Virus genome (UHGV): UHGV-0333516
Length of the DNA: 10,733 bases
Strand: one strand, 5' to 3'
Origin: a virus
Shown here: piece after piece, positions 1 to 10,733 of the stretch
How the letters are laid out: the number at the start of each line of letters is the position of its first letter
Numbering within the stretch: position 1 is the first letter of the stretch
Translations under genes and position numbers: made by a program
Notes under the pieces: model-generated
The model's input: the letters and a program-made list of their open reading frames with translations, nothing else
The model's database searches: none
Told to the model about the DNA's origin: nothing

Positions 1-160
1 ATATTATTGATACAGAGTGTATTAACGGAAAAATCGTTGTTGCCCATATCAATGGTGGGCAAGAAGCGACACTCAAAAAATTTGTTGAGGACTGGCCGAA
101 CAGGTATCTCGTCCCACTAAATCCTAACTATAAAACTATTGAATTCTGTATCAATAATAT
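1..160. repeat. 16-bp perfect inverted repeat (1-16 vs reverse complement of 145-160) flanking a 128-bp segment
   Basis: atattattgatacaga at 1-16 equals the reverse complement of 145-160; both copies encode IIDTE in the same codon phase on opposite strands. Confidence 0.9.
3..146 (+). pseudogene. orphan C-terminal S24-peptidase segment of the CI-like repressor, in opposite orientation to the gene body
   Basis: Plus frame from position 3, with no start codon, translates to IIDTECINGKIVVAHINGGQEATLKKFVEDWPNRYLVPLNPNYKTIEF. This aligns with the LexA/CI region holding the catalytic Lys (VTVKRL...LLPENSEFKPIVV). It continues exactly where the minus-strand repressor ORF breaks off. Confidence 0.6.
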
Positions 161-614
161 CTGGCTCTACGATAACGATAGAACCTTCTGGTATCGATGG
201 TGAGCCGAGGGGATTGGTCATTGAATCACCACGGACCCGTAGTGCAAATGCCATTTCTGATACAAGGGCGGTAGTATAAACCCACTCTTCAGCATCTTCT
301 TTCCTGACACCAGGCTCCGTCATTGTCCATGAACCCGCCTGAACCCACGAGATTAGGGGGACTTTTTTAACTGCGAATATTTCAGGTTTTAGATTTATCT
401 TTGGTTCAGGCGAGCCTTTTCCGCTAACAAGCCACAGAGGATCGCATTTAAGTGCGTTGGCTAGGGCTTGAAGGTTGGCTCCATTTGGTTGGTAGTCGTC
501 CTTTTCCCATCCAGTAACCGTGACACGGTTCACACCAGTCAAATCAGCCAGTGCTTGTTGTGTCAGGTTCAGTTCTTTTCGCCTTTGGCGAATACGATCA
601 CTCATGTTCATCAT
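117..614 (-). CDS. CI-like prophage repressor (HTH_XRE + N-terminal part of S24 LexA-like peptidase), apparently truncated
   Basis: N-terminal HTH (LTQQALADLTGVNRVTVTGWE) and Ser-motif GDSM are present. The ORF ends ...IVIVEPDIIDTEFNSFIVRI*, before the Lys-containing half of the S24 domain. The start abuts an operator-like site (leaderless-type arrangement). Confidence 0.8.
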   Translation of the reverse strand: MMNMSDRIRQRRKELNLTQQALADLTGVNRVTVTGWEKDDYQPNGANLQALANALKCDPLWLVSGKGSPEPKINLKPEIFAVKKVPLISWVQAGSWTMTEPGVRKEDAEEWVYTTALVSEMAFALRVRGDSMTNPLGSPSIPEGSIVIVEPDIIDTEFNSFIVRI

Positions 615-709
615 GTAGGCAATCCTACCACATGCCCATGTAGGATTCTTGACATTGGCATGTTGGATATCCTACATTTCTGCTTAACGTAATTTAACGG
701 GAGACAGAA
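615..709. promoter_or_regulatory. divergent cI/cro promoter-operator region with three operator-like sites
   Basis: Sites gtaggcaatcctac (615-628), gtaggattcttgac (640-653) and gttggatatcctac (662-675) lie about 22-25 bp apart. A consensus -35 TTGACA (649-654) with candidate -10 TACATT (673-678) faces cro. A candidate leftward -10 (taggat on the minus strand, 622-627) sits 7 nt before the cI ATG. Confidence 0.5.
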
Positions 710-907
710 ATGCGGAAATCCGACGTGATTAATTATTTCGGCGGAGTTTGTAAAATCGCCGAAGCCCTAGGTATTAAGCATCCGTCTGTTTCAGAGTGGC
801 CTGAGATTATTCCTGAAGGCCGAGCGTACCAGTTAGAAAAAATTACTAACGGGAAACTGAAAGTTGACGTGTCTTTATATCAAAAGACTAACAGTGCTGC
901 GGCATAA
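710..907 (+). CDS. Cro-like small HTH regulator (YdaS-like)
   Basis: 65-aa ORF divergent from the repressor, RBS gggag 8 nt upstream, HTH-like motif FGGVCKIAEALGIKHPSVSEW. Confidence 0.6.
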   Translation: MRKSDVINYFGGVCKIAEALGIKHPSVSEWPEIIPEGRAYQLEKITNGKLKVDVSLYQKTNSAAA

Positions 908-934
908 AAACACCACAGAAATGAGGAATTAACC

Positions 935-1519
935 GTGGGTAAAGAACCTGAATGGAAAGTTGATAAACAACCAGCATGGCTGGTGGCAGCAATACGAAGA
1001 ACGATTGCTGATTTACCTCATGGCTATGAGGAAGCAGCAGAAATTCTTGGTTTGTATAAATCTGATGATATCACCCCAGCAAAAGATCAATTGCATAACA
1101 GACTGCGTAGCGGTGGGGATCAAATTTTTCCACTTGAGTGGGCCATGGTTTTACAGGATGCCAGTGGTACCAGGCATGTAACAGATGCAATAGCCCGTCG
1201 TAGTAATGGGGTGTTTGTGCCGCTGGTGGTCATTGATGACATTGACAATGGTGACATTAATCAGCGGCTGATGGAGTCAATAGAATGGATTGGCAAGCAT
1301 TCCCAGTACTTACGCAAGGCAACTGCTGATGGAGTTATTGACCAGGCTGAGCGTGAGCAAATCGAAGAGAACAGCTACCAAGTAATGGCGAAGTGGCAGG
1401 AGCATTTAACACTGTTATTTCGTGTTTTTTGTGCGCCGGAAAAGAGTAACGCCCGCGAGTGTGCAGCTCCGGGCGTCGTGGCGTCGATTGCTTCTGGTTG
1501 TGGAGAAACTAACGCATGA
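935..1519 (+). CDS. CII-like phage regulatory protein (CP76/YdaT-like family, assignment by eye)
   Basis: 194-aa ORF directly after cro, GTG start with RBS gagga; its position matches cII-type genes of lambdoid prophages; its stop overlaps the next ATG (ATGA). Confidence 0.45.
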   Translation: MGKEPEWKVDKQPAWLVAAIRRTIADLPHGYEEAAEILGLYKSDDITPAKDQLHNRLRSGGDQIFPLEWAMVLQDASGTRHVTDAIARRSNGVFVPLVVIDDIDNGDINQRLMESIEWIGKHSQYLRKATADGVIDQAEREQIEENSYQVMAKWQEHLTLLFRVFCAPEKSNARECAAPGVVASIASGCGETNA

Positions 1520-1844
1520 ATAGTTTAACGGCAAATAACCGTTTGTCGCAACAGCTGGTGGTCAGCGTCGCTGAACACCTGTTGTTACGGCATGAATGCA
1601 GATTACCAAATCACCTGGCTGTAAGTAACCACAGAGAACTTTACCTGACTGTGGGGGGCGAGTTGTGCAGGAACTTAACCGCTGGTTTCGTGACGGAAGA
1701 GGGCTTTATGTCCATGTTATTCGTTGGGAGCCAGAAACACAGCGCGTTATCTATCTTCGCAAAGACTACCCGCATGAGTGCTTTAGTCCTTTGTGGAAAT
1801 TCAGGCGTGATTTTGTTGAGTGTGAAGGACCACCAGCATATTGA
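1516..1844 (+). CDS. hypothetical protein, reading frame apparently disrupted at a G6 tract (1653-1658)
   Basis: The ATG at 1516 is coupled to the upstream stop. After the G6 run the protein-like reading (RVVQELNRWFRDGRGLYVHVIRWEPETQRVIYLRKDYPHECFSPLWKFRRDFVECEGPPAY*) continues in the adjacent frame to a stop at 1842-1844. One additional G would fuse the two parts. Confidence 0.3.
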
Positions 1845-1932
1845 TTCTGCAATTCCGGGACGTTACACTGCTCAGGCACCTTATAAAGCGGGTGCCGGGA
1901 TTGGCGTCCTGAAATTGTCAACGGCGATGTAT

Positions 1933-1952
1933 GACGCGCCAGCGTCTTTTTT
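1933..1952 (+). terminator. candidate intrinsic terminator
   Basis: gacgc-gcca-gcgtc stem-loop followed by tttttt; lies inside the 386-aa track ORF. Confidence 0.4.
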
Positions 1953-2118
1953 ATCGTCCGCATTTGCTCACATCCAGATTATGGTGGGCTGGGCGGGGGC
2001 ACCGAAAGGTGCGCCGGTCTCCGTTGACGCCGGTTACGCCAACCCCGTCCAGTTCACCACCAGTGAAATTGGCGTTTCCGGTGGTGGAAGTTTTTCACTG
2101 TCAACGGAGGCTGCCATC

Positions 2119-2676
2119 ATGGCTACGATCCCAGCCCTCACTCAACCTGAAATCACCATTGACAACGGCCAGGCCGTTACCACTTCTTTGGCTGTTGCCA
2201 ACTTCTTCTCCAAGCGTCACGACGATGTGCTGAAAAAGATCCGCACTCTGGATTGTTCCCCAGAGTTTTGTGCCCGCAATTTTGCGGAGACATCGATTTC
2301 GGTAAATCAACCGAACGGTGGTACACGCAAGCTCCCTTGCTATCAAATCACACGAGACGGTTTTGCGTTTCTTGCTATGGGTTTCACGGGTAAACGTGCT
2401 GCCCGGTTCAAAGAGGCATACATAAATGCCTTTAACCAGATGGAGAAACAGCTTTCAAAGCCCGCTGTACCGAGCGACGTTGCACATAACGCCAGCGTTC
2501 TCTGTTCCTACATTTCATCAATTCATCAGGTCTGGCTGCAGCAGCTTTATCCTATGTTGGCAAAAGCCGAATCTCCGCTGGCTGTTAGCTTATATGACTA
2601 TATTAATGATGCTTCGGCGCTGGCCAGTCTCATAAATTTGTCGCTGAACCCTTCAGAGGTAAGGGGGCGCAAATGA
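2119..2676 (+). CDS. Rha-family phage regulatory protein
   Basis: Rha-type motif ITIDNGQAVTTSLAVANFFSKRHDDVLKKIR...GGTRKLPCYQITRDGFAFLAMGFTGKRAARFKEAYINAFNQME. The internal ATG at 2119 has RBS ggagg 8 nt upstream. The track ORF 1516..2676 is the same frame; its 5' extension is doubtful. Confidence 0.65.
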   Translation: MATIPALTQPEITIDNGQAVTTSLAVANFFSKRHDDVLKKIRTLDCSPEFCARNFAETSISVNQPNGGTRKLPCYQITRDGFAFLAMGFTGKRAARFKEAYINAFNQMEKQLSKPAVPSDVAHNASVLCSYISSIHQVWLQQLYPMLAKAESPLAVSLYDYINDASALASLINLSLNPSEVRGRK

Positions 2677-2897
2677 TCCGGAATATTTTCAAACGGTTTA
2701 CCAATCATACTTTCCGTTGTCCTCGTCCGGGTCAGTGGTACACCACGCCTGCTGGGCATGTTCTACGTGTTAGCCTGGTTGACCGTGAATGTCAGAAGGT
2801 GGTTTGTGAACCGCTGGGCCGTAATTACCGCGTCAGTATGCCGCTTATAGCCTTTTGCTCCGGAAAAATGTTTAAGCGTCTGGGAGGTGTGGCGTGA
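2673..2897 (+). CDS. hypothetical small Cys-containing protein
   Basis: 74-aa ORF, ATGA overlap with Rha stop, RBS agggggc upstream. Confidence 0.45.
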   Translation: MIRNIFKRFTNHTFRCPRPGQWYTTPAGHVLRVSLVDRECQKVVCEPLGRNYRVSMPLIAFCSGKMFKRLGGVA

Positions 2898-3193
2898 ACT
2901 GTTTTCAGTTTGTGTGCGGATGTGCTTTCGATAACCCGATTCAGCGCCTAATTATGTTGCGTGTTTTGATGTCGGGTTCTTCAGACGGTGAAGGCGAGAG
3001 AGTTATTGATCATCAGGTGCTTGCTGATTTCTGCTGTTGTTCTAAGCAAGCGATATTCAGGGAAACCCTGGCACTGGAAAGAGCTGGTTATCTTCATATC
3101 CGAAAAATTGCAACGCTTACTATTGATGCAAAAGCCAGACTACAACCTGCGCGTGGCTACACAATTCTCATGCTGCGGAAGGAGGTTGTATGA
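2894..3193 (+). CDS. hypothetical protein, possible DNA-binding
   Basis: 99-aa ORF, GTG start overlapping the upstream stop (GTGA), RBS gggagg upstream; alternative start at the internal Met. Confidence 0.45.
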   Translation: MNCFQFVCGCAFDNPIQRLIMLRVLMSGSSDGEGERVIDHQVLADFCCCSKQAIFRETLALERAGYLHIRKIATLTIDAKARLQPARGYTILMLRKEVV

Positions 3194-4185
3194 GCCGTTA
3201 CGCCCCCACACCGGAAGTTATGGCTATTGGTCAAATTAATATTTCCGGCAATGTTACACCTGCGACCTGGTGGAAATATATTCGACTACCCAGTGGGCGT
3301 CCGGATGCGACGGCTATCGCTCTGCTTTCAGAGATCGTTTACTGGTACCGCCCGACAGAGGTCAGGGATGAGCACACCGGAGCGTTGCTGGGATATCGCA
3401 AGCGTTTTCAGGGCGACAAACTGCAAAGAAGCTACCAGGCGTTTGCTGAGCAGTTTGGTTTCGGGAAAAGGGAAACCGCAGATGCGCTGAAGCGTCTGCG
3501 CGATGCAGGGTTTATTACTCTGGATTTACGCACGGTGGAAATGCTCGATGGGGTGAAATGCAGCAATATTTTGTTTGTCGGGATCAACCCACAGGCAATT
3601 GCGGCCATCACCACACCTTCTTCTGTTTCGCCAGAAAGTAACAGCAATAATGCAATCAGCGATACAGCTATTACGTTAAAACGGAACACCCCCCGACGTC
3701 ATAACGGAACAGGGGATACGCCGAATGTTGATACAAATACAGAGATTACTACAGAGATTACTACAGAGATTACAACGGAGACTAAAAACACTATTGGCGC
3801 ATCCGCTGACGCGTCTGCACCAGCGCGTTCTGCCAGACAGGAATATTCACCGGAATTTGAACAGGCCTGGCAGGAATATCCCAAACGTGCTGGTGGTAAT
3901 TCAAAATCCGCCGCTTTTAAAGCCTGGAAAGCCCGAATCAGGGAAGGTGTGACACCCGAAACCATGCTCGACGGTGTGAAACGCTATGCCGCCTGGGTGC
4001 GTGTCTCTGGAAATACCGGTACCCAGTTCGTGAAGCAGGCGTCGACGTTCTTTGGTCCGGATCGTCATTTCGAAGAATCCTGGGAAGTTCCTGCGGTATC
4101 TGCAGCCAGACGCGAGGACCCGTACTTCAAAGCCAGTTACGACAACGTGGACTACAGCCAGATCCCGGAAGGATTCAGGGGGTGA
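3190..4185 (+). CDS. phage replication protein with DnaT-like C-terminus
   Basis: 331-aa ORF with strong RBS ggaaggagg; C-terminal ...DYSQIPEGFRG resembles the C-terminus of primosomal protein DnaT (...SQIPPGFRG); central TEITTEITTEITTE linker. Confidence 0.65.
   Translation: MSRYAPTPEVMAIGQINISGNVTPATWWKYIRLPSGRPDATAIALLSEIVYWYRPTEVRDEHTGALLGYRKRFQGDKLQRSYQAFAEQFGFGKRETADALKRLRDAGFITLDLRTVEMLDGVKCSNILFVGINPQAIAAITTPSSVSPESNSNNAISDTAITLKRNTPRRHNGTGDTPNVDTNTEITTEITTEITTETKNTIGASADASAPARSARQEYSPEFEQAWQEYPKRAGGNSKSAAFKAWKARIREGVTPETMLDGVKRYAAWVRVSGNTGTQFVKQASTFFGPDRHFEESWEVPAVSAARREDPYFKASYDNVDYSQIPEGFRG
3739..3786. repeat. tandem 12-bp direct repeats (about 3.5-4 copies) inside the replication gene
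   Basis: acagagattact x2, acagagattaca, then degenerate acggagactaaa. Confidence 0.8.
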
Positions 4186-4187
4186 TC

Positions 4188-4280
4188 ATGAGTCTTTTGA
4201 ATGAAGTTCAGAAATTCATTGAAGCCCATCCGGGGTGTACTTCCGGAGACATTGCGGATGCTTTTTACGTGGGGGCTTAA
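4188..4280 (+). CDS. 30-aa small ORF (winged-helix N-terminal-like fragment)
   Basis: ATG overlaps the upstream stop; stop overlaps the Dam ATG (TAATG); MSLLNEVQKFIEAHPGCTSGDIADAF resembles the N-terminus of PapI/FaeA-type small regulators. Confidence 0.25.
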   Translation: MSLLNEVQKFIEAHPGCTSGDIADAFYVGA

Positions 4281-4933
4281 TGAGTAATAAATATTGCCAG
4301 GCGCTGGTAGAACTGCGGAACAAACCAGCCCATGAACTGAAGGAAGTGGGCGATCAGTGGCGCACGCCGGACAACATTTTCTGGGGAATTAACACCTTGT
4401 TTGGTCCGTTTGTTCTGGATCTGTTCACTGACGGTGATAACGCCAAATGTGCCGCGTATTACACGGCGGAAGACAACGCGCTGGCGCATGACTGGTCAGA
4501 ACGTCTTGCGGAGCTTAAAGGTGCTGCCTTTGGTAATCCCCCATACAGCCGCGCCAGTCAGCATGAGGGGCAATACATCACCGGCATGCGTTACATCATG
4601 AAACATGCCAGTGCCATGCGTGATAAGGGCGGGCGCTATGTTTTCCTGATCAAAGCGGCCACCAGCGAAGTGTGGTGGCCGGAAGATGCAGATCATATTG
4701 CTTTTATTCGCGGGCGTATTGGTTTTGAACTGCCAGCCTGGTTTATCCCGAAAGACGAAAAGCAGGTGCCAACAGGTGCTTTCTTCGCTGGTGCTATTGC
4801 TGTTTTCGACAAGACCTGGAAGGGAGCGGCAATCAGCTACATCGGGCGCGATGAACTTGAGGCATGTGGTGAGGCGTTTCTGGCGCAGGTTCGCCAGCAG
4901 GCGGAAAAACTGGTCAGGGAGATGGCGGCATGA
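4280..4933 (+). CDS. phage Dam-type DNA N6-adenine methyltransferase
   Basis: GNPPY motif (AAFGNPPYS); likely start ATG 4280 with G-rich RBS; the track ORF starts at 4235 in the same frame. Confidence 0.7.
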   Translation: MSNKYCQALVELRNKPAHELKEVGDQWRTPDNIFWGINTLFGPFVLDLFTDGDNAKCAAYYTAEDNALAHDWSERLAELKGAAFGNPPYSRASQHEGQYITGMRYIMKHASAMRDKGGRYVFLIKAATSEVWWPEDADHIAFIRGRIGFELPAWFIPKDEKQVPTGAFFAGAIAVFDKTWKGAAISYIGRDELEACGEAFLAQVRQQAEKLVREMAA

Positions 4934-5256
4934 CGACATTAACTCAATGCCAGCAGCAGGTGCTGGATATGCTGATTTCTTATCAGAAAGAACGTGGCTT
5001 CCCGCCAACCAATCAGGAGGTGGCAACCATGCTGGGATACCGTTCGGTGAATGCAGCGGTGGAGCATCTTCGCGCACTGGAGAAAAAAGGTGTCATCACG
5101 ATAAAGCGTGGCGTGGCCCGGGGTATCACTCTTCATACCGCGGTGAAGGACGACGACAGCGAGGCGGTCGGGATTATCCGCGCCCTGCTTGCCGGTGAGG
5201 CAAACGCCAGGCTGCGTGCAGCCCACTGGTTACATGAGAGGGGCCTGAAAGTATGA
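4930..5256 (+). CDS. LexA N-terminal DNA-binding-domain protein (no peptidase domain)
   Basis: QQQVLDMLISYQKERGFPPTNQEVATMLGYRSVNAAVEHLRALEKKGVITIKRGVARGITL aligns with E. coli LexA residues about 6-70 (winged HTH); there is no S24 domain. Confidence 0.75.
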   Translation: MTTLTQCQQQVLDMLISYQKERGFPPTNQEVATMLGYRSVNAAVEHLRALEKKGVITIKRGVARGITLHTAVKDDDSEAVGIIRALLAGEANARLRAAHWLHERGLKV

Positions 5257-5648
5257 AGCTAATACTGCCTTTTCCGCCCAGCGTGAACACGTACTGGCGA
5301 CACCCCAACAAAGGGGCGTTTGCTGGTAAGAGCCTGATAAGCGCGGCGGGGCGAAAATTCCAGAGCGCGGCGTGTGCAGCAATAGTTGAGCAGTTACGTC
5401 GTCTGCCGAAACCAACGTCGGCACCTGCTTCAGTGGAGATCGTGTTGTTTCCTCCGGATAACCGGATCCGCGATCTGGACAACTATAACAAGGCGCTGTT
5501 TGACGCCCTGACCCACGCGGGTGTGTGGGAAGACGACAGACAGGTGAAAAGAATGCTGGTGGAGTGGGGACCGGTTATCCCGGAGGGGAAGGTCGAGATC
5601 ACTATCAGTAAGTACGAAAAAGCGAGTTGCAAATTAGCAACTCGGTAA
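5253..5648 (+). CDS. rusA: RusA Holliday-junction resolvase
   Basis: 131-aa ORF with RusA-type motifs (LPFPPSVNTYWRH..., RDLDNYNKALFDALTHAGVWEDD); position in the nin-like region. Confidence 0.85.
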   Translation: MKLILPFPPSVNTYWRHPNKGAFAGKSLISAAGRKFQSAACAAIVEQLRRLPKPTSAPASVEIVLFPPDNRIRDLDNYNKALFDALTHAGVWEDDRQVKRMLVEWGPVIPEGKVEITISKYEKASCKLATR

Positions 5649-5693
5649 CGGAATTGAGCAACACCCTAAATTTGGGTATTACCTCGTTAAAGA

Positions 5694-5713
5694 TACTGTA
5701 TTTATGAACAGTG
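5694..5713. promoter_or_regulatory. candidate LexA (SOS) box
   Basis: tactgtatttatgaacagtg: perfect CTGT-N8-ACAG core, 16/20 match to TACTGTATATATATACAGTA; overlaps a candidate -35 (tgaaca) with -10 tattaa at 5728-5733. Confidence 0.5.
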
Positions 5714-5810
5714 TATCCTTGATAACTATTAAAAATCGCAGTAAGTTCATCCTGCATCAACGAAAAGGGAGTGCAGTCCCGCTCGTGGATAAAAATTTGT
5801 GGAGAAACCA

Positions 5811-6626
5811 ATGAATCAGTTGCTTGTAATTGATGGCGTTTCTGTGCGCCAGTACTTCGAATCTAACTACTGTCTTAACGACCTTCAGAAAGCTGCTCTT
5901 CTTGCCGCTGGTGAGAATCGCTCCTCCCGTTCGCTGGAAGTTCACGAGTTTATGCGTCGTCCTGAAACGAAGGCTCTTGTGGAATTATTGGAAGAAGAAA
6001 CTACGGGAGATTCCCGTAGTATTCCTGTCATCACCATTCAGGGGCGCAATGGTGGGACGTATGTCTGTAAAGAGCTGGTCTATGCATATGCAATGTGGAT
6101 CAGCCCGGCATTCAGCTTAAAAGTGATACGTACTTTTGATGCGCTTCATAATTCATCACCAGAAGAAACCACATCCGACAAAATTAAATCCGGGGTCATT
6201 CTGCTTGAATCAGCAGCAAAGACTCTAAATCTGTCAAACTCCTCGAAACTTGGTGCATACCAGAAATTATCAAAGGTAGCTGGTCTTCCTGAACTTATGC
6301 CGATCTATGCCATTGATGCACCTGCTGATGCGCCAGATGGTTCAAGCCGCCCTACGCTGTCGCTGAGTGCACTGCTGAAGCAGTATGGTATCCGCCTGAC
6401 GGCTAATCAGGCATATCACCAGATGGCGAAGCTGGGGATCGTTGAACAACGCGAACGATACAGCCGTACCGCGATTAACAACATCAAAAAATTCTGGTCG
6501 CTGACAGCGAAAGGTTGCATGTTCGGCAAGAACATCACCAGTCCCGCAAATCCGCGCGAGACGCAGCCGCATTTCTTCGAATCCCGATTCCCTGAGCTGT
6601 TAAAGCTGCTCGATACCGTTCATTGA
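5811..6626 (+). CDS. KilA-N domain protein, antirepressor-like
   Basis: N-terminal KilA-N-like region (...PVITIQGRNGGTYVCKELVYAYAMWISPAFSLKVIRTFDAL); ATG 5811 with RBS gtggag; the track start 5799 is a GTG in the same frame. Confidence 0.65.
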   Translation: MNQLLVIDGVSVRQYFESNYCLNDLQKAALLAAGENRSSRSLEVHEFMRRPETKALVELLEEETTGDSRSIPVITIQGRNGGTYVCKELVYAYAMWISPAFSLKVIRTFDALHNSSPEETTSDKIKSGVILLESAAKTLNLSNSSKLGAYQKLSKVAGLPELMPIYAIDAPADAPDGSSRPTLSLSALLKQYGIRLTANQAYHQMAKLGIVEQRERYSRTAINNIKKFWSLTAKGCMFGKNITSPANPRETQPHFFESRFPELLKLLDTVH

Positions 6627-6627
6627 G

Positions 6628-7623
6628 GTGACCGTGAGAGCACTACTGACCCCTGAAATTGCCCCGCGTATGGGGATCGTATTGTTCAGACCCGGTTCAG
6701 AGCTGATGCCCCTGTTTATGCAGGGGCGTGTCCTGCTGGAGCCTGAGCCGGAACGTTATTCATCTTTTGCCAGTGGTGCCGTTCCGGCAGCATCACAACC
6801 GCTGGCGGATGATCCTGCCGTTCGGGTCGTGTTCCGCAATGAGGCAGTGATCCGTCGTGCTGGTGGCGTGGAATGTCTTGAAAGCTGGTTACTTCGTGAA
6901 AAAGGTTGCCAGTGGCCTCATTCCGACTGGCACAGCGAGAACATGACCACAATGCGACACGCGCCGGGCGCAATCCGTCTGTGCTGGCACTGCGATAACC
7001 AGCTGCGCGATCAGTTCACGGAACGGCTGGAATCAATGGCAACGGATAACTGTGCCCGCTGGGTGTTGTCTGTTGTGCGTCGGGATCTCGGTTTTGATGA
7101 CAGTCACGTTGTGACAATGCCGGAACTGTGCTGGTGGCTGGTTCGTAATGATCTGGCGGATGCCTTACCGGAAAGTGCAGCCCGTAAGGCACTGAGATTA
7201 CCGAAGCCTGTTGTGCCGTCTGTCACCCGGGAGAGTGACCTTGTGCCTTCGGTTCCGGCCACCAGCATCATCCAGAATAAAGCGAAAAAGGTGCTGGCGC
7301 TGAAAGTGGATCCGGAGTCGCCGGAGTCTTTTATGTTACGCCCAAAACGTCGCCGCTGGGTTAACGAAAAGTACACGCGCTGGGTTAAGACGCAGCCGTG
7401 TGCATGTTGTGGAAAGCCTGCTGATGATCCCCACCACCTGATAGGCCACGGTCAGGGGGGAATGGGTACAAAAGCGCATGACCTCTTCGTGCTGCCTTTG
7501 TGCAGAAAGCATCACGACGAGCTGCATGCGGATACCGTGGCATTTGAAGAGAAGTATGGCTCCCAGCTGGAGCTGATATTTCGTTTTATCGATCGTGCGC
7601 TGGCAATAGGCGTGCTGGCCTGA
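6628..7623 (+). CDS. DUF968-like prophage protein with C-terminal HNH-like Cys/His motif
   Basis: C-terminal CACCGKPADDPHHLIGHGQGGMGTKAHDLFVLPLCRKHHDELH; sits immediately upstream of Q as in other E. coli prophages. Confidence 0.6.
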   Translation: MTVRALLTPEIAPRMGIVLFRPGSELMPLFMQGRVLLEPEPERYSSFASGAVPAASQPLADDPAVRVVFRNEAVIRRAGGVECLESWLLREKGCQWPHSDWHSENMTTMRHAPGAIRLCWHCDNQLRDQFTERLESMATDNCARWVLSVVRRDLGFDDSHVVTMPELCWWLVRNDLADALPESAARKALRLPKPVVPSVTRESDLVPSVPATSIIQNKAKKVLALKVDPESPESFMLRPKRRRWVNEKYTRWVKTQPCACCGKPADDPHHLIGHGQGGMGTKAHDLFVLPLCRKHHDELHADTVAFEEKYGSQLELIFRFIDRALAIGVLA

Positions 7624-7640
7624 TTTTGTGGAGAAAGTTG

Positions 7641-8012
7641 ATGCGTGATATTCAAATGGTTCTTGAACGTTGGGGGGCATGGGTGGCAAATAATCACGAG
7701 GATGTGGAATGGTCATCTGTTGCTGCAGGTTTTAAGGGATTAATTCCTTCGAAAGTAAAATCCCGCCCGCAATGTAGCGATGACGATGGCCTGATCATTA
7801 GCTCTGCGATGACAGTTCTTAAGAAAAAGGAACCGTATCAATACGAATTACTGGAAATGTATTATGTGTATGGGGTTACATTACGGGTGTTGGGGGTAAA
7901 ACTGGGGATATCACTTAATCAGGTTGTTATCAGACTGCAGAAAGCTGAAGGGTTTATTGACGGTTGTCTGGCAATGTTGGGGGTATCTTTAGAAATTGAT
8001 TGTTACATATAG
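7641..8012 (+). CDS. late-gene antitermination protein Q (small Q family)
   Basis: MRDIQMVLERWGAWVANNHEDVEWSS...SKVKSRPQCSDDD...RLQKAEGFIDGCLAMLGV matches the Q-family pattern of E. coli cryptic prophages; ATG 7641 with RBS gtggag. Confidence 0.8.
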   Translation: MRDIQMVLERWGAWVANNHEDVEWSSVAAGFKGLIPSKVKSRPQCSDDDGLIISSAMTVLKKKEPYQYELLEMYYVYGVTLRVLGVKLGISLNQVVIRLQKAEGFIDGCLAMLGVSLEIDCYI

Positions 8013-8087
8013 TAATAAATTCAATCAAAGTAAATAATCATATTTTATTATAACCTCCTGATGATACCTGTTCATTGGGAGGTTATT

Positions 8088-8705
8088 ATGGATAAAAATG
8101 TAGAGCATGTATTAGTTGATGCAATTGAAAATAAGCAATCTTTAACAGTCGTTTACTTAGGAGGGAGCCAGCCCGGAACATTAAGGAATATTTCTCCGAT
8201 TAGTATAAATGGGGATAAATTGCGGGCAAGATGCCATAGTTCTGGAGCAGTAAAGGTTTTCAATCTTGGGAAAATACAGTTACCCAGTGACTCCTGCGCG
8301 GTATCTATGCACTATGGAGATTTAGAAGTTAAAGCTTATGAGACGATGCAGAGCGTAAATGACAACTTTCATGCCCTTTATCCTGAAGGACGATGGGGTG
8401 TTGATTTTAATGAGCATCGCTTTGCTTTATTTGATTTTTTTAAAAACGGGAAACGAAAAAAAACGGCATTTATGGCAATTGAGTTCAGGGAAAGAGATGA
8501 AGAGAAAATAATAACAGGTGTAACAATTGATATTGGTATATCTGGAACAGTGATTTCTGAGAAGTCCCGAATCCCAAAAAGACGACCATGGGTAGTGGTT
8601 GGTCCCGAACACGGAGAATACAGTACTTATTCAACTTTGGACAAGGCTGCTACAGCGTTTTTTGAGAGGCTTTCGTTGATAGCATCCGGCCTGGAAGATA
8701 ATTGA
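8088..8705 (+). CDS. hypothetical AT-rich cargo protein with WYL-like N-terminal motif
   Basis: Strong RBS gggagg 5 nt before ATG 8088; about 205 aa; visibly AT-rich compared with flanking genes; N-terminal LTVVYLGGSQPGTLRNISPISINGDKLRARCHSSGAVKVFNLGKI resembles the WYL/SH3-like beta-barrel pattern (by eye). Confidence 0.6.
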   Translation: MDKNVEHVLVDAIENKQSLTVVYLGGSQPGTLRNISPISINGDKLRARCHSSGAVKVFNLGKIQLPSDSCAVSMHYGDLEVKAYETMQSVNDNFHALYPEGRWGVDFNEHRFALFDFFKNGKRKKTAFMAIEFRERDEEKIITGVTIDIGISGTVISEKSRIPKRRPWVVVGPEHGEYSTYSTLDKAATAFFERLSLIASGLEDN

Positions 8706-8835
8706 TTTTATGTTTGGTATTCAGAGTTCGCCGTGCTTAAGAAAGTCAAGATTCTAAAAATACTGAATGAGCTACTTGTGTTATAACAAAAATGCTATTA
8801 GTGTGTTAAGAGTGGTTACTTCGCCACACAACTTA

Positions 8836-8859
8836 AACCCGCCACTGAGCGGGTTTTTT
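8836..8859 (+). terminator. intrinsic terminator (tR'-like)
   Basis: aacccgc-cactga-gcgggtt stem-loop followed by tttttt. Confidence 0.6.
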
Positions 8860-8981
8860 GTACCTGTAAACTTGGTGCAGTACAGTAAACACGCTGGTGG
8901 TCGTGAATACTGACTTTTTATCTTGCTGGCTTTTTAGACAAGAGTTATTGGTATGTCATGTTAACCAGAAGGGAAAAAGAC

Positions 8982-9179
8982 ATGCTAAAACAGCAAGATA
9001 TGACCGAAACCGCCAGAGTGGTGTTTAATGAATTGAGCGTCACCGAACCGGCGACAGTCGGGGAGATTGCGCAGAATACTTACCTTTCACGCGAACGCTG
9101 CCAGTTAATACTGACCCAGCTGGTTATGGCGGGTCTGGCAGACTATCAGTTCGGTTGTTACAGACGCCTTCCGCAGTGA
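8982..9179 (+). CDS. small winged-helix-like protein (PapI/FaeA-like by eye)
   Basis: 65 aa from ATG 8982 (RBS agaaggga); the track start 8958 is in the same frame; TVGEIAQNTYLSRERCQLILTQLVMAGLA resembles small wHTH regulators. Confidence 0.45.
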   Translation: MLKQQDMTETARVVFNELSVTEPATVGEIAQNTYLSRERCQLILTQLVMAGLADYQFGCYRRLPQ

Positions 9180-9193
9180 AGGCTTTTTTATTT
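9166..9193 (+). terminator. intrinsic terminator overlapping the stop of the small wHTH gene
   Basis: gccttc-cgcagt-gaaggc stem-loop followed by ttttttattt. Confidence 0.6.
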
Positions 9194-9329
9194 GTGGTAA
9201 ATGGGCGGTTGGTGGGTGTTAGGGGCACCCACCAGCCATCTGCTCATGCGTTGGGTTCACAAGCAAACCTCAGGCCCACTGCTTTGCGCAAAAGCAGAAT
9301 GAGCCTATCAGAGACAGGCTTAATGATCC

Positions 9330-10379
9330 ATGCTTAATACTGTAAAAATATCCAGTTGTGAGTTAATCAACGCCGACTGCCTGGAATTTATCCGGTCGTT
9401 ACCCGAAAATTCTGTTGACCTGATAGTCACGGACCCGCCGTACTTTAAAGTGAAGCCTGAGGGCTGGGATAACCAGTGGAAGGGCGACGATGATTACCTG
9501 AAGTGGCTGGACCAGTGTCTGGCGCAGTTCTGGCGGGTGCTGAAACCTGCCGGAAGTCTTTACCTGTTCTGTGGTCATCGCCTGGCATCTGATATCGAAA
9601 TCATGATGCGTGAACGCTTCAGTGTGCTGAACCATATTATCTGGGCGAAGCCGTCCGGACGCTGGAACGGATGCAACAAGGAAAGCCTGCGGGCGTATTT
9701 CCCCGCCACAGAGCGCATTCTGTTCGCGGAACATTATCAGGGGCCGTATCGTCCGAAAGATGCCGGGTATGAGGCGAAGAGCAGGGCACTGAAACAGCAT
9801 GTGATGGCCCCGCTGATTGCTTACTTTCGTGATGCGCGCGCTGCCCTGGGGATAACGGCAAAACAGATTGCAGATGCCACAGGAAAGAAAAACATGGTGC
9901 CGCACTGGTTCAGTGCCAGTCAGTGGCAGCTACCGAACGAAAGCGATTATCTGAAATTACAGTCGCTGTTTGCCCGGGTGGCAGAAGAGAAACATCAGCG
10001 GGGAGAACTGGAAAAGTCCCATTACCAACTGGTCAGCACATACAGTGAGCTGAACCGGCAGTATACGGAACTGCTGAGTGAATATAAAAATTTGCGGCGG
10101 TATTTCGGTGTGACGGTGCAGGTGCCGTACACCGATGTGTGGACGTATAAACCGGTGCAGTACTATCCAGGGAAACATCCGTGCGAAAAACCGGCAGAAA
10201 TGCTGCAGCAGATAATCAGCGCAAGTAGTCGTCCTGGTGATCTGGTTGCGGATTTTTTCATGGGGTCGGGTTCAACGGTAAAAGCGGCGATGGCACTGGG
10301 GCGTCGTGCGATTGGTGTTGAGCTGGAGACCGGACGTTTTGAGCAGACAGTCAGGGAAGTTCAGGATTTAATCGTTTGA
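9330..10379 (+). CDS. DNA methyltransferase (beta-class N6A/N4C type; motif IV DPPY precedes motif I)
   Basis: LIVTDPPY near the N-terminus and DFFMGSGST near the C-terminus; 349 aa. Confidence 0.85.
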   Translation: MLNTVKISSCELINADCLEFIRSLPENSVDLIVTDPPYFKVKPEGWDNQWKGDDDYLKWLDQCLAQFWRVLKPAGSLYLFCGHRLASDIEIMMRERFSVLNHIIWAKPSGRWNGCNKESLRAYFPATERILFAEHYQGPYRPKDAGYEAKSRALKQHVMAPLIAYFRDARAALGITAKQIADATGKKNMVPHWFSASQWQLPNESDYLKLQSLFARVAEEKHQRGELEKSHYQLVSTYSELNRQYTELLSEYKNLRRYFGVTVQVPYTDVWTYKPVQYYPGKHPCEKPAEMLQQIISASSRPGDLVADFFMGSGSTVKAAMALGRRAIGVELETGRFEQTVREVQDLIV

Positions 10380-10390
10380 AACGGATGAGA

Positions 10391-10419
10391 TTGCAGTATT
10401 AATTCCGTAACGTTATTAT
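10391..10419 (+). promoter_or_regulatory. candidate stable-RNA-type promoter for the tRNA cluster
   Basis: -35 ttgcag (10391-10396), 17-bp spacer, -10 tattat (10414-10419), GC-rich discriminator ctgcgcgcgg immediately before the tRNA 5' end. Confidence 0.45.
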
Positions 10420-10428
10420 TCTGCGCGC

Positions 10429-10504
10429 GGCCCTTTAGCTCAGTGGTGAGAGCGAGCGACTCATAATCGCCAGGTCGCTGGTTCAAATCCAGCAAGGGCC
10501 ACCA
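10429..10504 (+). tRNA. tRNA-Ile(CAU) (ileX/ileZ-like; tRNA-Met not excluded)
   Basis: 76-nt cloverleaf: acceptor ggccctt/aagggcc, D-stem gctc/gagc, anticodon loop ctcataa (CAT), T-loop ttcaaat, 3' ACCA; close to E. coli ileX. Confidence 0.8.
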
Positions 10505-10513
10505 TATCACATA

Positions 10514-10590
10514 CCGCCATTAGCTCATCGGGATAGAGCGTCAGCCTTCGAAGCTGGTTGCGCGGGGTTCGAGTCCTCGATGGCGGTCCA
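10514..10590 (+). tRNA. tRNA-Arg(UCG)
   Basis: 77-nt cloverleaf: acceptor ccgccat/atggcgg, D-stem gctc/gagc, anticodon loop cttcgaa (TCG), T-arm cgggg-ttcgagt-cctcg, 3' TCCA. Confidence 0.75.
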
Positions 10591-10615
10591 TTATCTGTAC
10601 CCTGCGTTGTTAGCT

Positions 10616-10733
10616 CCCGCGCAACCAGCTTCGAAGGCTGACGCTCTATCCCGATGAGCTAATGGCGGTATGTGATATGGTGGCCCTTGCTGGATTTGAA
10701 CCAGCGACCTGGCGATTATGAGTCGCTCGCTCT
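10616..10733 (-). repeat. perfect 118-bp inverted duplicate of 10449-10566 (partial tRNA-Arg and tRNA-Ile copies), running to the window end
   Basis: 10616-10733 is the exact reverse complement of 10449-10566; the 49-bp unique spacer 10567-10615 holds the tRNA-Arg 3' end. Confidence 0.9.

What the first reader, a model, noticed from the sequence alone, without database searches (positions are those of the whole stretch)
10449..10733. Perfect 118-bp inverted duplication of the tRNA cluster at the window end
10616-10733 is the exact reverse complement of 10449-10566, around a 49-bp unique centre that carries the tRNA-Arg 3' end. The repeat runs to the last base, so it may extend further. With zero mismatches it is either very recent or artefactual. 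Biologically it could be the boundary of an inverted duplication or a recombination junction between tRNA genes. tRNA loci are frequent integration and recombination targets. Technically it looks like a foldback chimera.
Basis: seen in the sequence. Interest (0 to 1): 0.65.

Follow-up and report, generated by a model that had tools for sequence, protein, structure and literature searches.

The report
Fold-back chimera at contig end
The perfect 118-base inverted repeat is real in the sequence, but it is most likely a fold-back chimera stuck onto the end of an assembled prophage fragment (the other end has one too), not a biological rearrangement of the tRNA genes.

Summary
Bases 10616-10733 are the perfect reverse complement of 10449-10566, with a 49-nt spacer. 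The window is the early region of a lambdoid (Stx-phage-like) E. coli prophage: truncated cI, cro, cII, replication genes, Q, a DNA methylase, then the ileZ-argN-argO tRNA cluster. A nearly identical prophage in a complete E. coli chromosome (CM127687.1) is colinear with window 145-10616 at 99.87% and continues into an intact third tRNA, argO. The window keeps only the first 13 nt of argO, then flips onto the opposite strand 49 nt back. Only 1 nt is shared at that junction. The left end of the window does the same thing: bases 1-144 are the reverse complement of the sequence that should lie to the left, with no shared bases at the junction. This cuts the repressor gene. Neither junction occurs in any public collection I searched, and 70 of 70 other copies of the argN-argO spacer continue into argO. 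My verdict is a technical fold-back chimera at both contig ends, of the strand-switch type known from amplification. It is not recombination between tRNA genes and not an integration site. A real inverted duplication is not strictly excluded, but it is unlikely. Interest is low.

The parts
10429..10504 (+). tRNA with anticodon CAT (ileZ-type tRNA-Ile2). Its last 56 nt lie in the left arm.
   Evidence: ARAGORN and Rfam tRNA at 72.5 bits. Annotated as tRNA-Ile / ileZ in relatives.
10514..10590 (+). tRNA-Arg (TCG), argN-type. Bases 10514-10566 lie in the left arm and 10567-10590 in the spacer.
   Evidence: ARAGORN, Rfam, and the annotation argN in AP012536.
10604..10616 (+). First 13 nt of the third tRNA gene (argO, tRNA-Arg TCT), cut off at the fold-back junction.
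   Evidence: Alignments A1 and A2. The intact argO is at L090 15415-15491. 70 of 70 other copies of the preceding 32-mer continue into argO.
10449..10566 (+). Left (authentic, colinear) arm of the inverted repeat.
10567..10615 (+). 49-nt spacer: authentic colinear sequence comprising the argN 3' end, the intergenic spacer and the argO 5' start.
10616..10733 (-). Right arm, a reverse-complement copy of 10449-10566. It holds truncated inverted copies of argN (no 3' end) and ileZ (no 5' end). The junction lies at 10616|10617, with 1 nt (C10616) shared.
   Evidence: 100% to L090 15377-15260 on the opposite strand. Rfam finds a 5'-cut tRNA on the minus strand at 10681-10733.
1..144 (-). Second fold-back at the left end. 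It is the reverse complement of the 144 nt that include and precede window 145-160 in relatives. Bases 1-16 are the arm and 17-144 are a 128-nt spacer. The junction is at 144|145, with 0 nt shared.
   Evidence: 100% to L072 616-473 and L090 4971-4828 on the opposite strand.
145..160 (+). Partner arm of the left-end fold-back.
117..614 (-). cI/LexA-like repressor gene truncated by the left junction: 165 aa with only half of the S24 domain, against 217 aa intact in relatives.
   Evidence: Pfam. The intact 217-aa gene is seen in L072 and L090.
9330..10379 (+). DNA methyltransferase (N6_N4_Mtase) immediately upstream of the tRNA cluster. It is context that places the locus in lambdoid/Stx-type phages.
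   Evidence: Pfam and annotations of relatives.

Best explanation
The window is a whole assembled contig. Its authentic part (145-10616) is a 10.47-kb interior segment of a lambdoid E. coli prophage. At each end, a chimeric DNA molecule or read in which synthesis switched to the opposite strand a short distance away (49 nt on the right, 128 nt on the left) was assembled onto the contig. This produced terminal fold-backs. The 118-nt perfect inverted repeat is therefore the same stretch of DNA read twice, which is why it has no mismatches. Its length is set by where the contig stops, not by biology. Shown: the junction positions, the colinear continuation in relatives, the second fold-back, and the absence of both junctions elsewhere. 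Inferred: that the switch happened in vitro (strand-displacement amplification such as MDA, or end-repair/snap-back during library preparation) and not in the cell.
For: (1) A near-identical prophage (CM127687.1, locus L090) is colinear with window 145-10616 at 99.866% over 10,472 nt without gaps. Both terminal pieces match it at 100% on the opposite strand. L090 has intact ileZ, argN and argO and an intact 217-aa repressor. (2) In 285 phage records and 3,075 E. coli records, every colinear match stops at window 10616. No place covers more than 89% of 9700-10733. Relatives go on into argO and then stx2 or lysis genes. (3) 70 of 70 other occurrences of the argN-argO spacer 32-mer continue into argO. 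(4) Both junction 30-mers are absent from the viral, genome and metagenome contig collections. (5) Both ends of the same contig carry an inverted junction, and 0 of 72 related loci have one. Each junction destroys a gene: argO on the right and the repressor on the left. (6) The geometry matches in-vitro inverted chimeras. In one single-cell MDA dataset, 85% of chimeras were inversions, mostly between segments less than 10 kb apart within one molecule (PMC1855051). A review reports preferred distances of about 80 and 250-300 nt and an amplicon length of about 12 kb (PMC9984789). (7) The final 119-mer (10615-10733) is exactly the last k-mer that still contains a non-arm base. A de Bruijn unitig at k = 119 would stop there. 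The k value is from my memory of MEGAHIT's default list and was not verified.
Against: No reads, coverage or sample metadata are available, so the in-vitro origin is inferred. The junctions share only 1 and 0 nt, whereas 93.5% of proximal inverted MDA chimeras have at least 2 nt of overlap and the mode is 5-8 nt, so MDA specifically is not a clean fit. The k = 119 rule explains the right arm (118 nt) but not the left arm (16 nt). Absence from other assemblies would also be expected for a very recent real event in one strain.
Confidence: 0.82

Rival explanations
1. A real, recent inverted duplication in the prophage or chromosome. A broken or stalled replication end folded back and copied its own strand, giving a large palindrome centred on 10567-10615.
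For: The perfect identity of the arms and the run to the window end fit a very recent event. Inverted chromosome duplications do form in E. coli (PMC3315005).
Against: In E. coli these were seen at a pre-existing 246-bp palindrome and only without SbcCD and RecA. Here there is no pre-existing inverted repeat at the junction, only 1 nt shared. The event would sever Q and the late promoter region from the late genes and destroy argO. It does not explain why the other contig end carries a second, independent fold-back. It is absent from all the assemblies and contig collections searched, including the 5,426 complete E. coli genomes.
Confidence: 0.07
2. A real extrachromosomal lambda-dv-like replicon. 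The immunity/replication segment of the prophage would replicate as a head-to-head / tail-to-tail inverted dimer (or a hairpin-ended linear). An assembler collapses such a molecule into one unit with a fold-back at each end.
For: There are two fold-backs, one at each end of a single 10.47-kb unit. The unit holds cro, cII, replication-initiator genes and an iteron-like array at 3726-3784, and the repressor is inactivated by the left junction. Inverted-dimer ('amphimeric') lambda dv plasmids were described in the 1970s. That is recalled from memory and was not retrieved here (one search found nothing usable).
Against: An abundant real hairpin or dimer should give equal arms of k-1 at both ends in a k-mer assembler, or long arms in a long-read assembler. 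The arms seen are 118 and 16 nt. A randomly placed 10-kb piece of a roughly 50-kb prophage contains the replication module about one time in four or five (my estimate), so the content is weak evidence. No comparable molecule was found in the plasmid collection. The prior for such molecules in ordinary samples is very low.
Confidence: 0.05
3. An assembler mis-join without chimeric reads. Examples are collapse of tRNA clusters from several prophages lying in opposite orientations, or an 'unsafe unitig' through a shared k-mer at low coverage.
For: E. coli genomes carry a median of 3 places matching this region. Low-coverage unitigs can be misassembled even from error-free reads (PMC9528984).
Against: Such joins need a shared (k-1)-mer between the two strands at the junction, and only 1 nt and 0 nt are shared. 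Traversing a repeat that also exists in inverted orientation elsewhere leads out into the other copy's flank and never back along the same sequence. The inverted arm carries this prophage's own argN variant (T at 10541) and is 100% identical to the left arm.
Confidence: 0.04
4. A site-specific event at a tRNA gene (an integrase att site), or a hairpin telomere of a linear phage-plasmid of the N15 type.
For: tRNA genes are common integration targets, and terminal inverted sequence is what a hairpin telomere gives when read through.
Against: The sequence beyond the junction is the same locus inverted, not foreign DNA. There is no core duplication and no integrase or protelomerase among the ORFs scanned against Pfam and PHROGs. 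A hairpin telomere would give a palindrome with no 49- or 128-nt asymmetric spacer. The same sequences are internal and colinear in hundreds of prophages.
Confidence: 0.01

Closest known systems
Inverted chimeras of multiple displacement amplification (Lasken & Stockwell 2007, PMC1855051; review PMC9984789)
   Same: Two segments of the same locus are joined on opposite strands with a short intervening distance (49 and 128 nt here; preferred distances of about 80 and 250-300 nt are reported). The events are intramolecular. The spacing between the two junctions (10.5 kb) is near the quoted amplicon length of about 12 kb.
   Different: The reported junctions nearly always show 2-21 nt of priming complementarity (93.5% for proximal inversions). 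Here it is 1 and 0 nt. Whether the source sample was amplified at all is unknown.
Library-preparation chimeric reads at inverted repeats (PDSM model, Chen et al. 2024, PMC10908179)
   Same: Artefactual reads that join a sequence to its own nearby reverse complement.
   Different: That model depends on inverted or palindromic sequences already present in the genome. No such repeat exists at either junction here.
Palindrome-induced inverted chromosome duplication in E. coli (Darmon et al. 2010, PMC3315005)
   Same: The product would be a large inverted duplication around a short centre, formed through a hairpin-capped end.
   Different: It needs a pre-existing 246-bp palindrome and loss of SbcCD and RecA. 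There is no pre-existing palindrome here, and a second fold-back sits at the other contig end.
ileZ-argN-argO tRNA cluster of Stx-converting and related lambdoid phages (e.g. AP012536; E. coli ZH063 prophage)
   Same: The same gene order (Q, small ORF, DNA methylase, ileZ, argN, argO) at 92-99% identity.
   Different: In the window argO is cut after 13 nt. Nothing downstream (stx or lysis genes) is present.
Lambda dv 'amphimeric' plasmids (recalled from 1970s literature, not verified here)
   Same: An immunity/replication segment of a lambdoid phage repeated in inverted order would give one unit with two inverted junctions.
   Different: There is no evidence of an autonomous molecule. The arm lengths are unequal and short. 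The unit is larger than needed and extends to Q, the methylase and the tRNAs.

Membership tests
In-vitro fold-back (inverted) chimera, MDA type | The two joined segments lie on opposite strands of the same locus. | tested here: met
   both terminal pieces match the reference at 100% on the opposite strand.
In-vitro fold-back (inverted) chimera, MDA type | The segments are proximal (less than 10 kb apart, typically tens to hundreds of nt). | tested here: met
   The distances are 49 nt and 128 nt.
In-vitro fold-back (inverted) chimera, MDA type | Short priming complementarity (at least 2 nt) at the junction. | tested here: not met
   1 nt on the right and 0 nt on the left. 93.5% of proximal inverted MDA chimeras have at least 2 nt.
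In-vitro fold-back (inverted) chimera, MDA type | The junction is absent from independent assemblies of the same sequence. | tested here: met
In-vitro fold-back (inverted) chimera, MDA type | The junction is supported only by a minority of reads or by amplified DNA, and is absent from native DNA. | not testable with these tools
   No reads, depth or sample metadata are available.
Real hairpin-primed inverted duplication / palindrome | A pre-existing short inverted repeat or quasi-palindrome at the turning point. | tested here: not met
   The base-by-base pairing of 10609-10616 against 10566-10573, read directly from the sequence, gives only C10616:G10566. The alignment agrees.
Real hairpin-primed inverted duplication / palindrome | The inverted copy continues well beyond the junction in the native molecule. 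| not testable with these tools
   The window ends 118 nt after the junction.
tRNA-targeted site-specific integration (att site) | Foreign DNA beyond the junction, a duplicated att core restoring the tRNA 3' end, and an integrase nearby. | tested here: not met
   The sequence beyond the junction is the reverse complement of the same locus. The junction is in the D-stem of argO and the T-stem of argN. There is no integrase among the window ORFs scanned.
Hairpin telomere of linear phage-plasmids (N15 type) | A perfect palindrome without an asymmetric spacer at the genome end, plus a protelomerase gene. | tested here: not met
   The spacers are 49 and 128 nt. The ends cut through genes that are internal in relatives. 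There is no protelomerase hit.
Lambdoid/Stx-phage ileZ-argN-argO tRNA cluster | Three tRNA genes (CAT, TCG, TCT) in this order downstream of Q and the DNA methylase. | tested here: met
   ileZ and argN are intact and argO is present only as its first 13 nt. Q and the methylase lie upstream.

The most novel reading that the evidence does not exclude
The two fold-backs are real and mark the ends of a self-replicating, lambda-dv-like inverted dimer (or hairpin-ended linear). This would have been carved out of an induced lambdoid prophage when both forks leaving the phage origin (iteron array near 3750) made a U-turn. It would carry cro, cII, the replication genes, Q, a methylase and two tRNAs, but no functional repressor.
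Probability: 0.05. Interest if true: 0.5.

Novelty: not a real feature. Interest (0 to 1): 0.1.

Why it matters
The main value is as a caution. The repeat should not be reported as a tRNA-gene rearrangement, an integration hotspot or a phage terminal repeat. The contig should be trimmed to 145-10616 before annotation, because the truncated 165-aa 'repressor' ORF and the partial minus-strand tRNA are products of the chimeric ends. It also shows a quick test for such cases: look at the other contig end and compare with a near-identical complete genome. If the fold-backs were real, they would be a rare natural example of fork U-turn products or a dv-like replicon from a prophage.

Tried and rejected
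1. I looked for the source contig by exact-protein look-up. The methylase and the DUF968 protein are not on record. Two other proteins returned relatives but not the window itself. They did yield the near-identical locus L090.

2. I searched both junction 30-mers in the viral, genome-representative and metagenome contig collections. There were no hits.

3. I screened 72 related loci for terminal fold-backs to see whether this is a common feature of such contigs. None had one.

4. I considered homologous recombination between tRNA genes and rejected it, because only 1 nt is shared and argO position 13 and argN position 53 have no inverted homology.

5. I considered a mis-join between prophages in opposite orientation or an unsafe unitig, and rejected both because no shared k-mer exists at either junction.

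6. I considered restriction or proximity ligation. The left junction creates a GAATTC, but neither parental sequence has an EcoRI site, so this is coincidence.

7. I tried to explain both arm lengths by one assembler k. k = 119 fits the right end exactly but not the left, so this is left open.

8. Literature searches for 'ileZ argN argO' and for inverted lambda dv plasmids returned nothing usable.

9. A plasmid-collection search found no small replicon with this arrangement.

Full report
Observation. The claim is exact. The repeat finder gives arms 10449-10566 and 10616-10733, 118 nt, 100% complementary, 49 nt apart, with the right arm ending at the last base of the window. No other inverted repeat in the window exceeds 25 nt or 83% complementarity. 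Folded as single-stranded DNA, the 285 nt give -171.9 kcal/mol against -44.6 +/- 3.8 for shuffles. Chance cannot produce this.

What the locus is. ARAGORN finds two tRNA genes: 10429-10504 (anticodon CAT) and 10514-10590 (Arg, TCG). Rfam agrees and also detects a 5'-truncated tRNA on the minus strand at 10681-10733, which is the inverted partial copy. Upstream lie a cI/LexA-like repressor (minus strand), cro, cII, an ash/rha gene, replication genes, dam, rusA, a KilA-N protein, DUF968, antiterminator Q, a 214-aa protein of unknown function and an N6_N4 DNA methyltransferase. BLAST places this among Stx-converting and other lambdoid E. coli prophages. In those phages the methylase is followed by ileZ (tRNA-Ile2, read by ARAGORN as Met-CAT), argN and argO, and then stx2AB or the lysis genes.

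The junction. In 285 phage records and 3,075 E. coli records, every colinear match to 9700-10733 stops at window position 10616. Alignments with E. coli ZH063 and phage Stx2a_1447 show that the window carries the first 13 nt of argO (GCGTTGTTAGCTC, 10604-10616). It then continues with the reverse complement of 10566 downwards, where the relatives continue with AGCCGGACAGAGC.... All 70 other occurrences of the 32-mer that ends at the junction (69 IMG/VR contigs and ZH063) continue into argO. Only C10616 is shared between the two partners. Pairing the bases inward from the junction gives no further complementarity, so there is no pre-existing inverted repeat that could have primed a snap-back. 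The junction falls at the end of the 5' D-stem strand of argO and inside the 5' T-stem strand of argN.

A near-identical reference. An exact-protein look-up with the window's replication protein returned locus L090 (E. coli chromosome CM127687.1, GCA_052767385.1). Window 145-10616 aligns to it colinearly at 99.866% over 10,472 nt without gaps. Window 10616-10733 matches L090 15377-15260 at 100% on the opposite strand. L090 has all three tRNAs intact. So the expected continuation is known from an almost identical prophage, and it is not an inverted copy.

The other end of the window. Window 1-144 is the reverse complement of the 144 nt that, in relatives, include and precede window 145-160. It matches L072 616-473 and L090 4971-4828 at 100%. 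This is a second fold-back. The arm is 1-16 against 145-160, the spacer is 128 nt, the junction is at 144|145, and no bases are shared. It truncates the repressor to 165 aa with half an S24 domain, against 217 aa in relatives. None of 72 related loci has a terminal fold-back. Both junction 30-mers are absent from the viral, genome and metagenome contig collections.

Interpretation. The window is best read as a contig whose authentic part is 145-10616. Both tips come from molecules or reads in which synthesis switched to the opposite strand a short distance away. The arms are identical because they are the same DNA read twice. This geometry is the signature of in-vitro inverted chimeras. In single-cell MDA of E. 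coli, 85% of chimeras were inversions, mostly intramolecular and less than 10 kb apart (PMC1855051). A review reports preferred distances of about 80 and 250-300 nt and an amplicon length of about 12 kb (PMC9984789). The fit is not perfect. Those junctions usually show 2-21 nt of complementarity (93.5% of proximal inversions), whereas the junctions here are essentially blunt. I therefore claim an in-vitro strand-switch or fold-back artefact in general and do not claim MDA specifically.

Contig-end lengths. The last 119-mer (10615-10733) is exactly the last k-mer that still holds a non-arm base. That is where a node-centric de Bruijn unitig at k = 119 would stop before re-entering its own reverse complement. 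The k value is from my memory of MEGAHIT's default list. The left arm (16 nt) does not obey the same rule, so this remains a suggestion.

Rivals.
- A real hairpin-primed inverted duplication is possible in principle. In E. coli, however, it has been seen at a pre-existing 246-bp palindrome in sbcCD recA mutants (PMC3315005). Here there is no such palindrome. The event would separate Q from the late genes, and it does not explain the second fold-back.
- An assembler mis-join without chimeric reads would need a shared k-mer at the junction, and none exists.
- An att site or a hairpin telomere is excluded by the content beyond the junction, the asymmetric spacers and the lack of an integrase or protelomerase.
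- The most interesting reading not excluded is a lambda-dv-like inverted dimer. The unit between the junctions holds the complete early/replication module, including an iteron-like 12-nt array at 3726-3784, and the repressor is disabled. Against it stand the unequal, short arms, the low prior and the weak specificity of the gene content. I give it about 5%.

Verdict. The biological interpretations are not supported. The most likely explanation is a fold-back chimera at both contig ends (confidence about 0.8). It is not a real genomic feature, and its interest is low.

Noticed in passing
window 1-160: There is a second fold-back at the left end. Bases 1-144 are the reverse complement of the sequence that should lie left of and overlap 145-160 (100% to relatives on the opposite strand). 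The arm is 16 nt, the spacer is 128 nt, and the junction at 144|145 has no shared bases. It truncates the cI/LexA-like repressor (117-614, minus strand) to 165 aa. The junction happens to create a GAATTC that neither parental sequence has.
   Followed up: yes
window 1876-2064: Rfam finds isrK (1876-1952, 62 bits) and C4 antisense RNA (1977-2064, 81 bits) on the + strand inside the 386-aa ash/rha ORF (1516-2676). This looks like a P1/P7-like c4-type antisense immunity module embedded in a lambdoid early region.
   Followed up: no
window 8061-8705: A 214-aa ORF with no Pfam hit (phrog_8498, unknown function) sits between Q and the methylase, a position typical of morons downstream of the late promoter. 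The identical protein occurs in many prophages, followed either by this methylase or by an AraC-type regulator.
   Followed up: partly
window 3726-3784: Four to five tandem 12-nt units (TACAGAGATTAC) lie inside the replication-initiator gene (3190-4185). This iteron-like array is probably the phage origin, as in the lambda O gene.
   Followed up: no
window 10541: argN has T where most relatives have C (GAGCGTCAGCC against GAGCGCCAGCC), which turns the first anticodon-stem pair into G-U. The near-identical prophage in CM127687.1 shares this base, and by construction so does the inverted arm.
   Followed up: partly
window 2894-4185: The 99-aa ORF at 2894-3193 matches only the N-terminal part (positions 3-93 of 223) of a replication-initiation family (phrog_4617). 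It abuts the 331-aa replication protein at 3190-4185. The same split is present in relatives, so it is not an assembly error.
   Followed up: no
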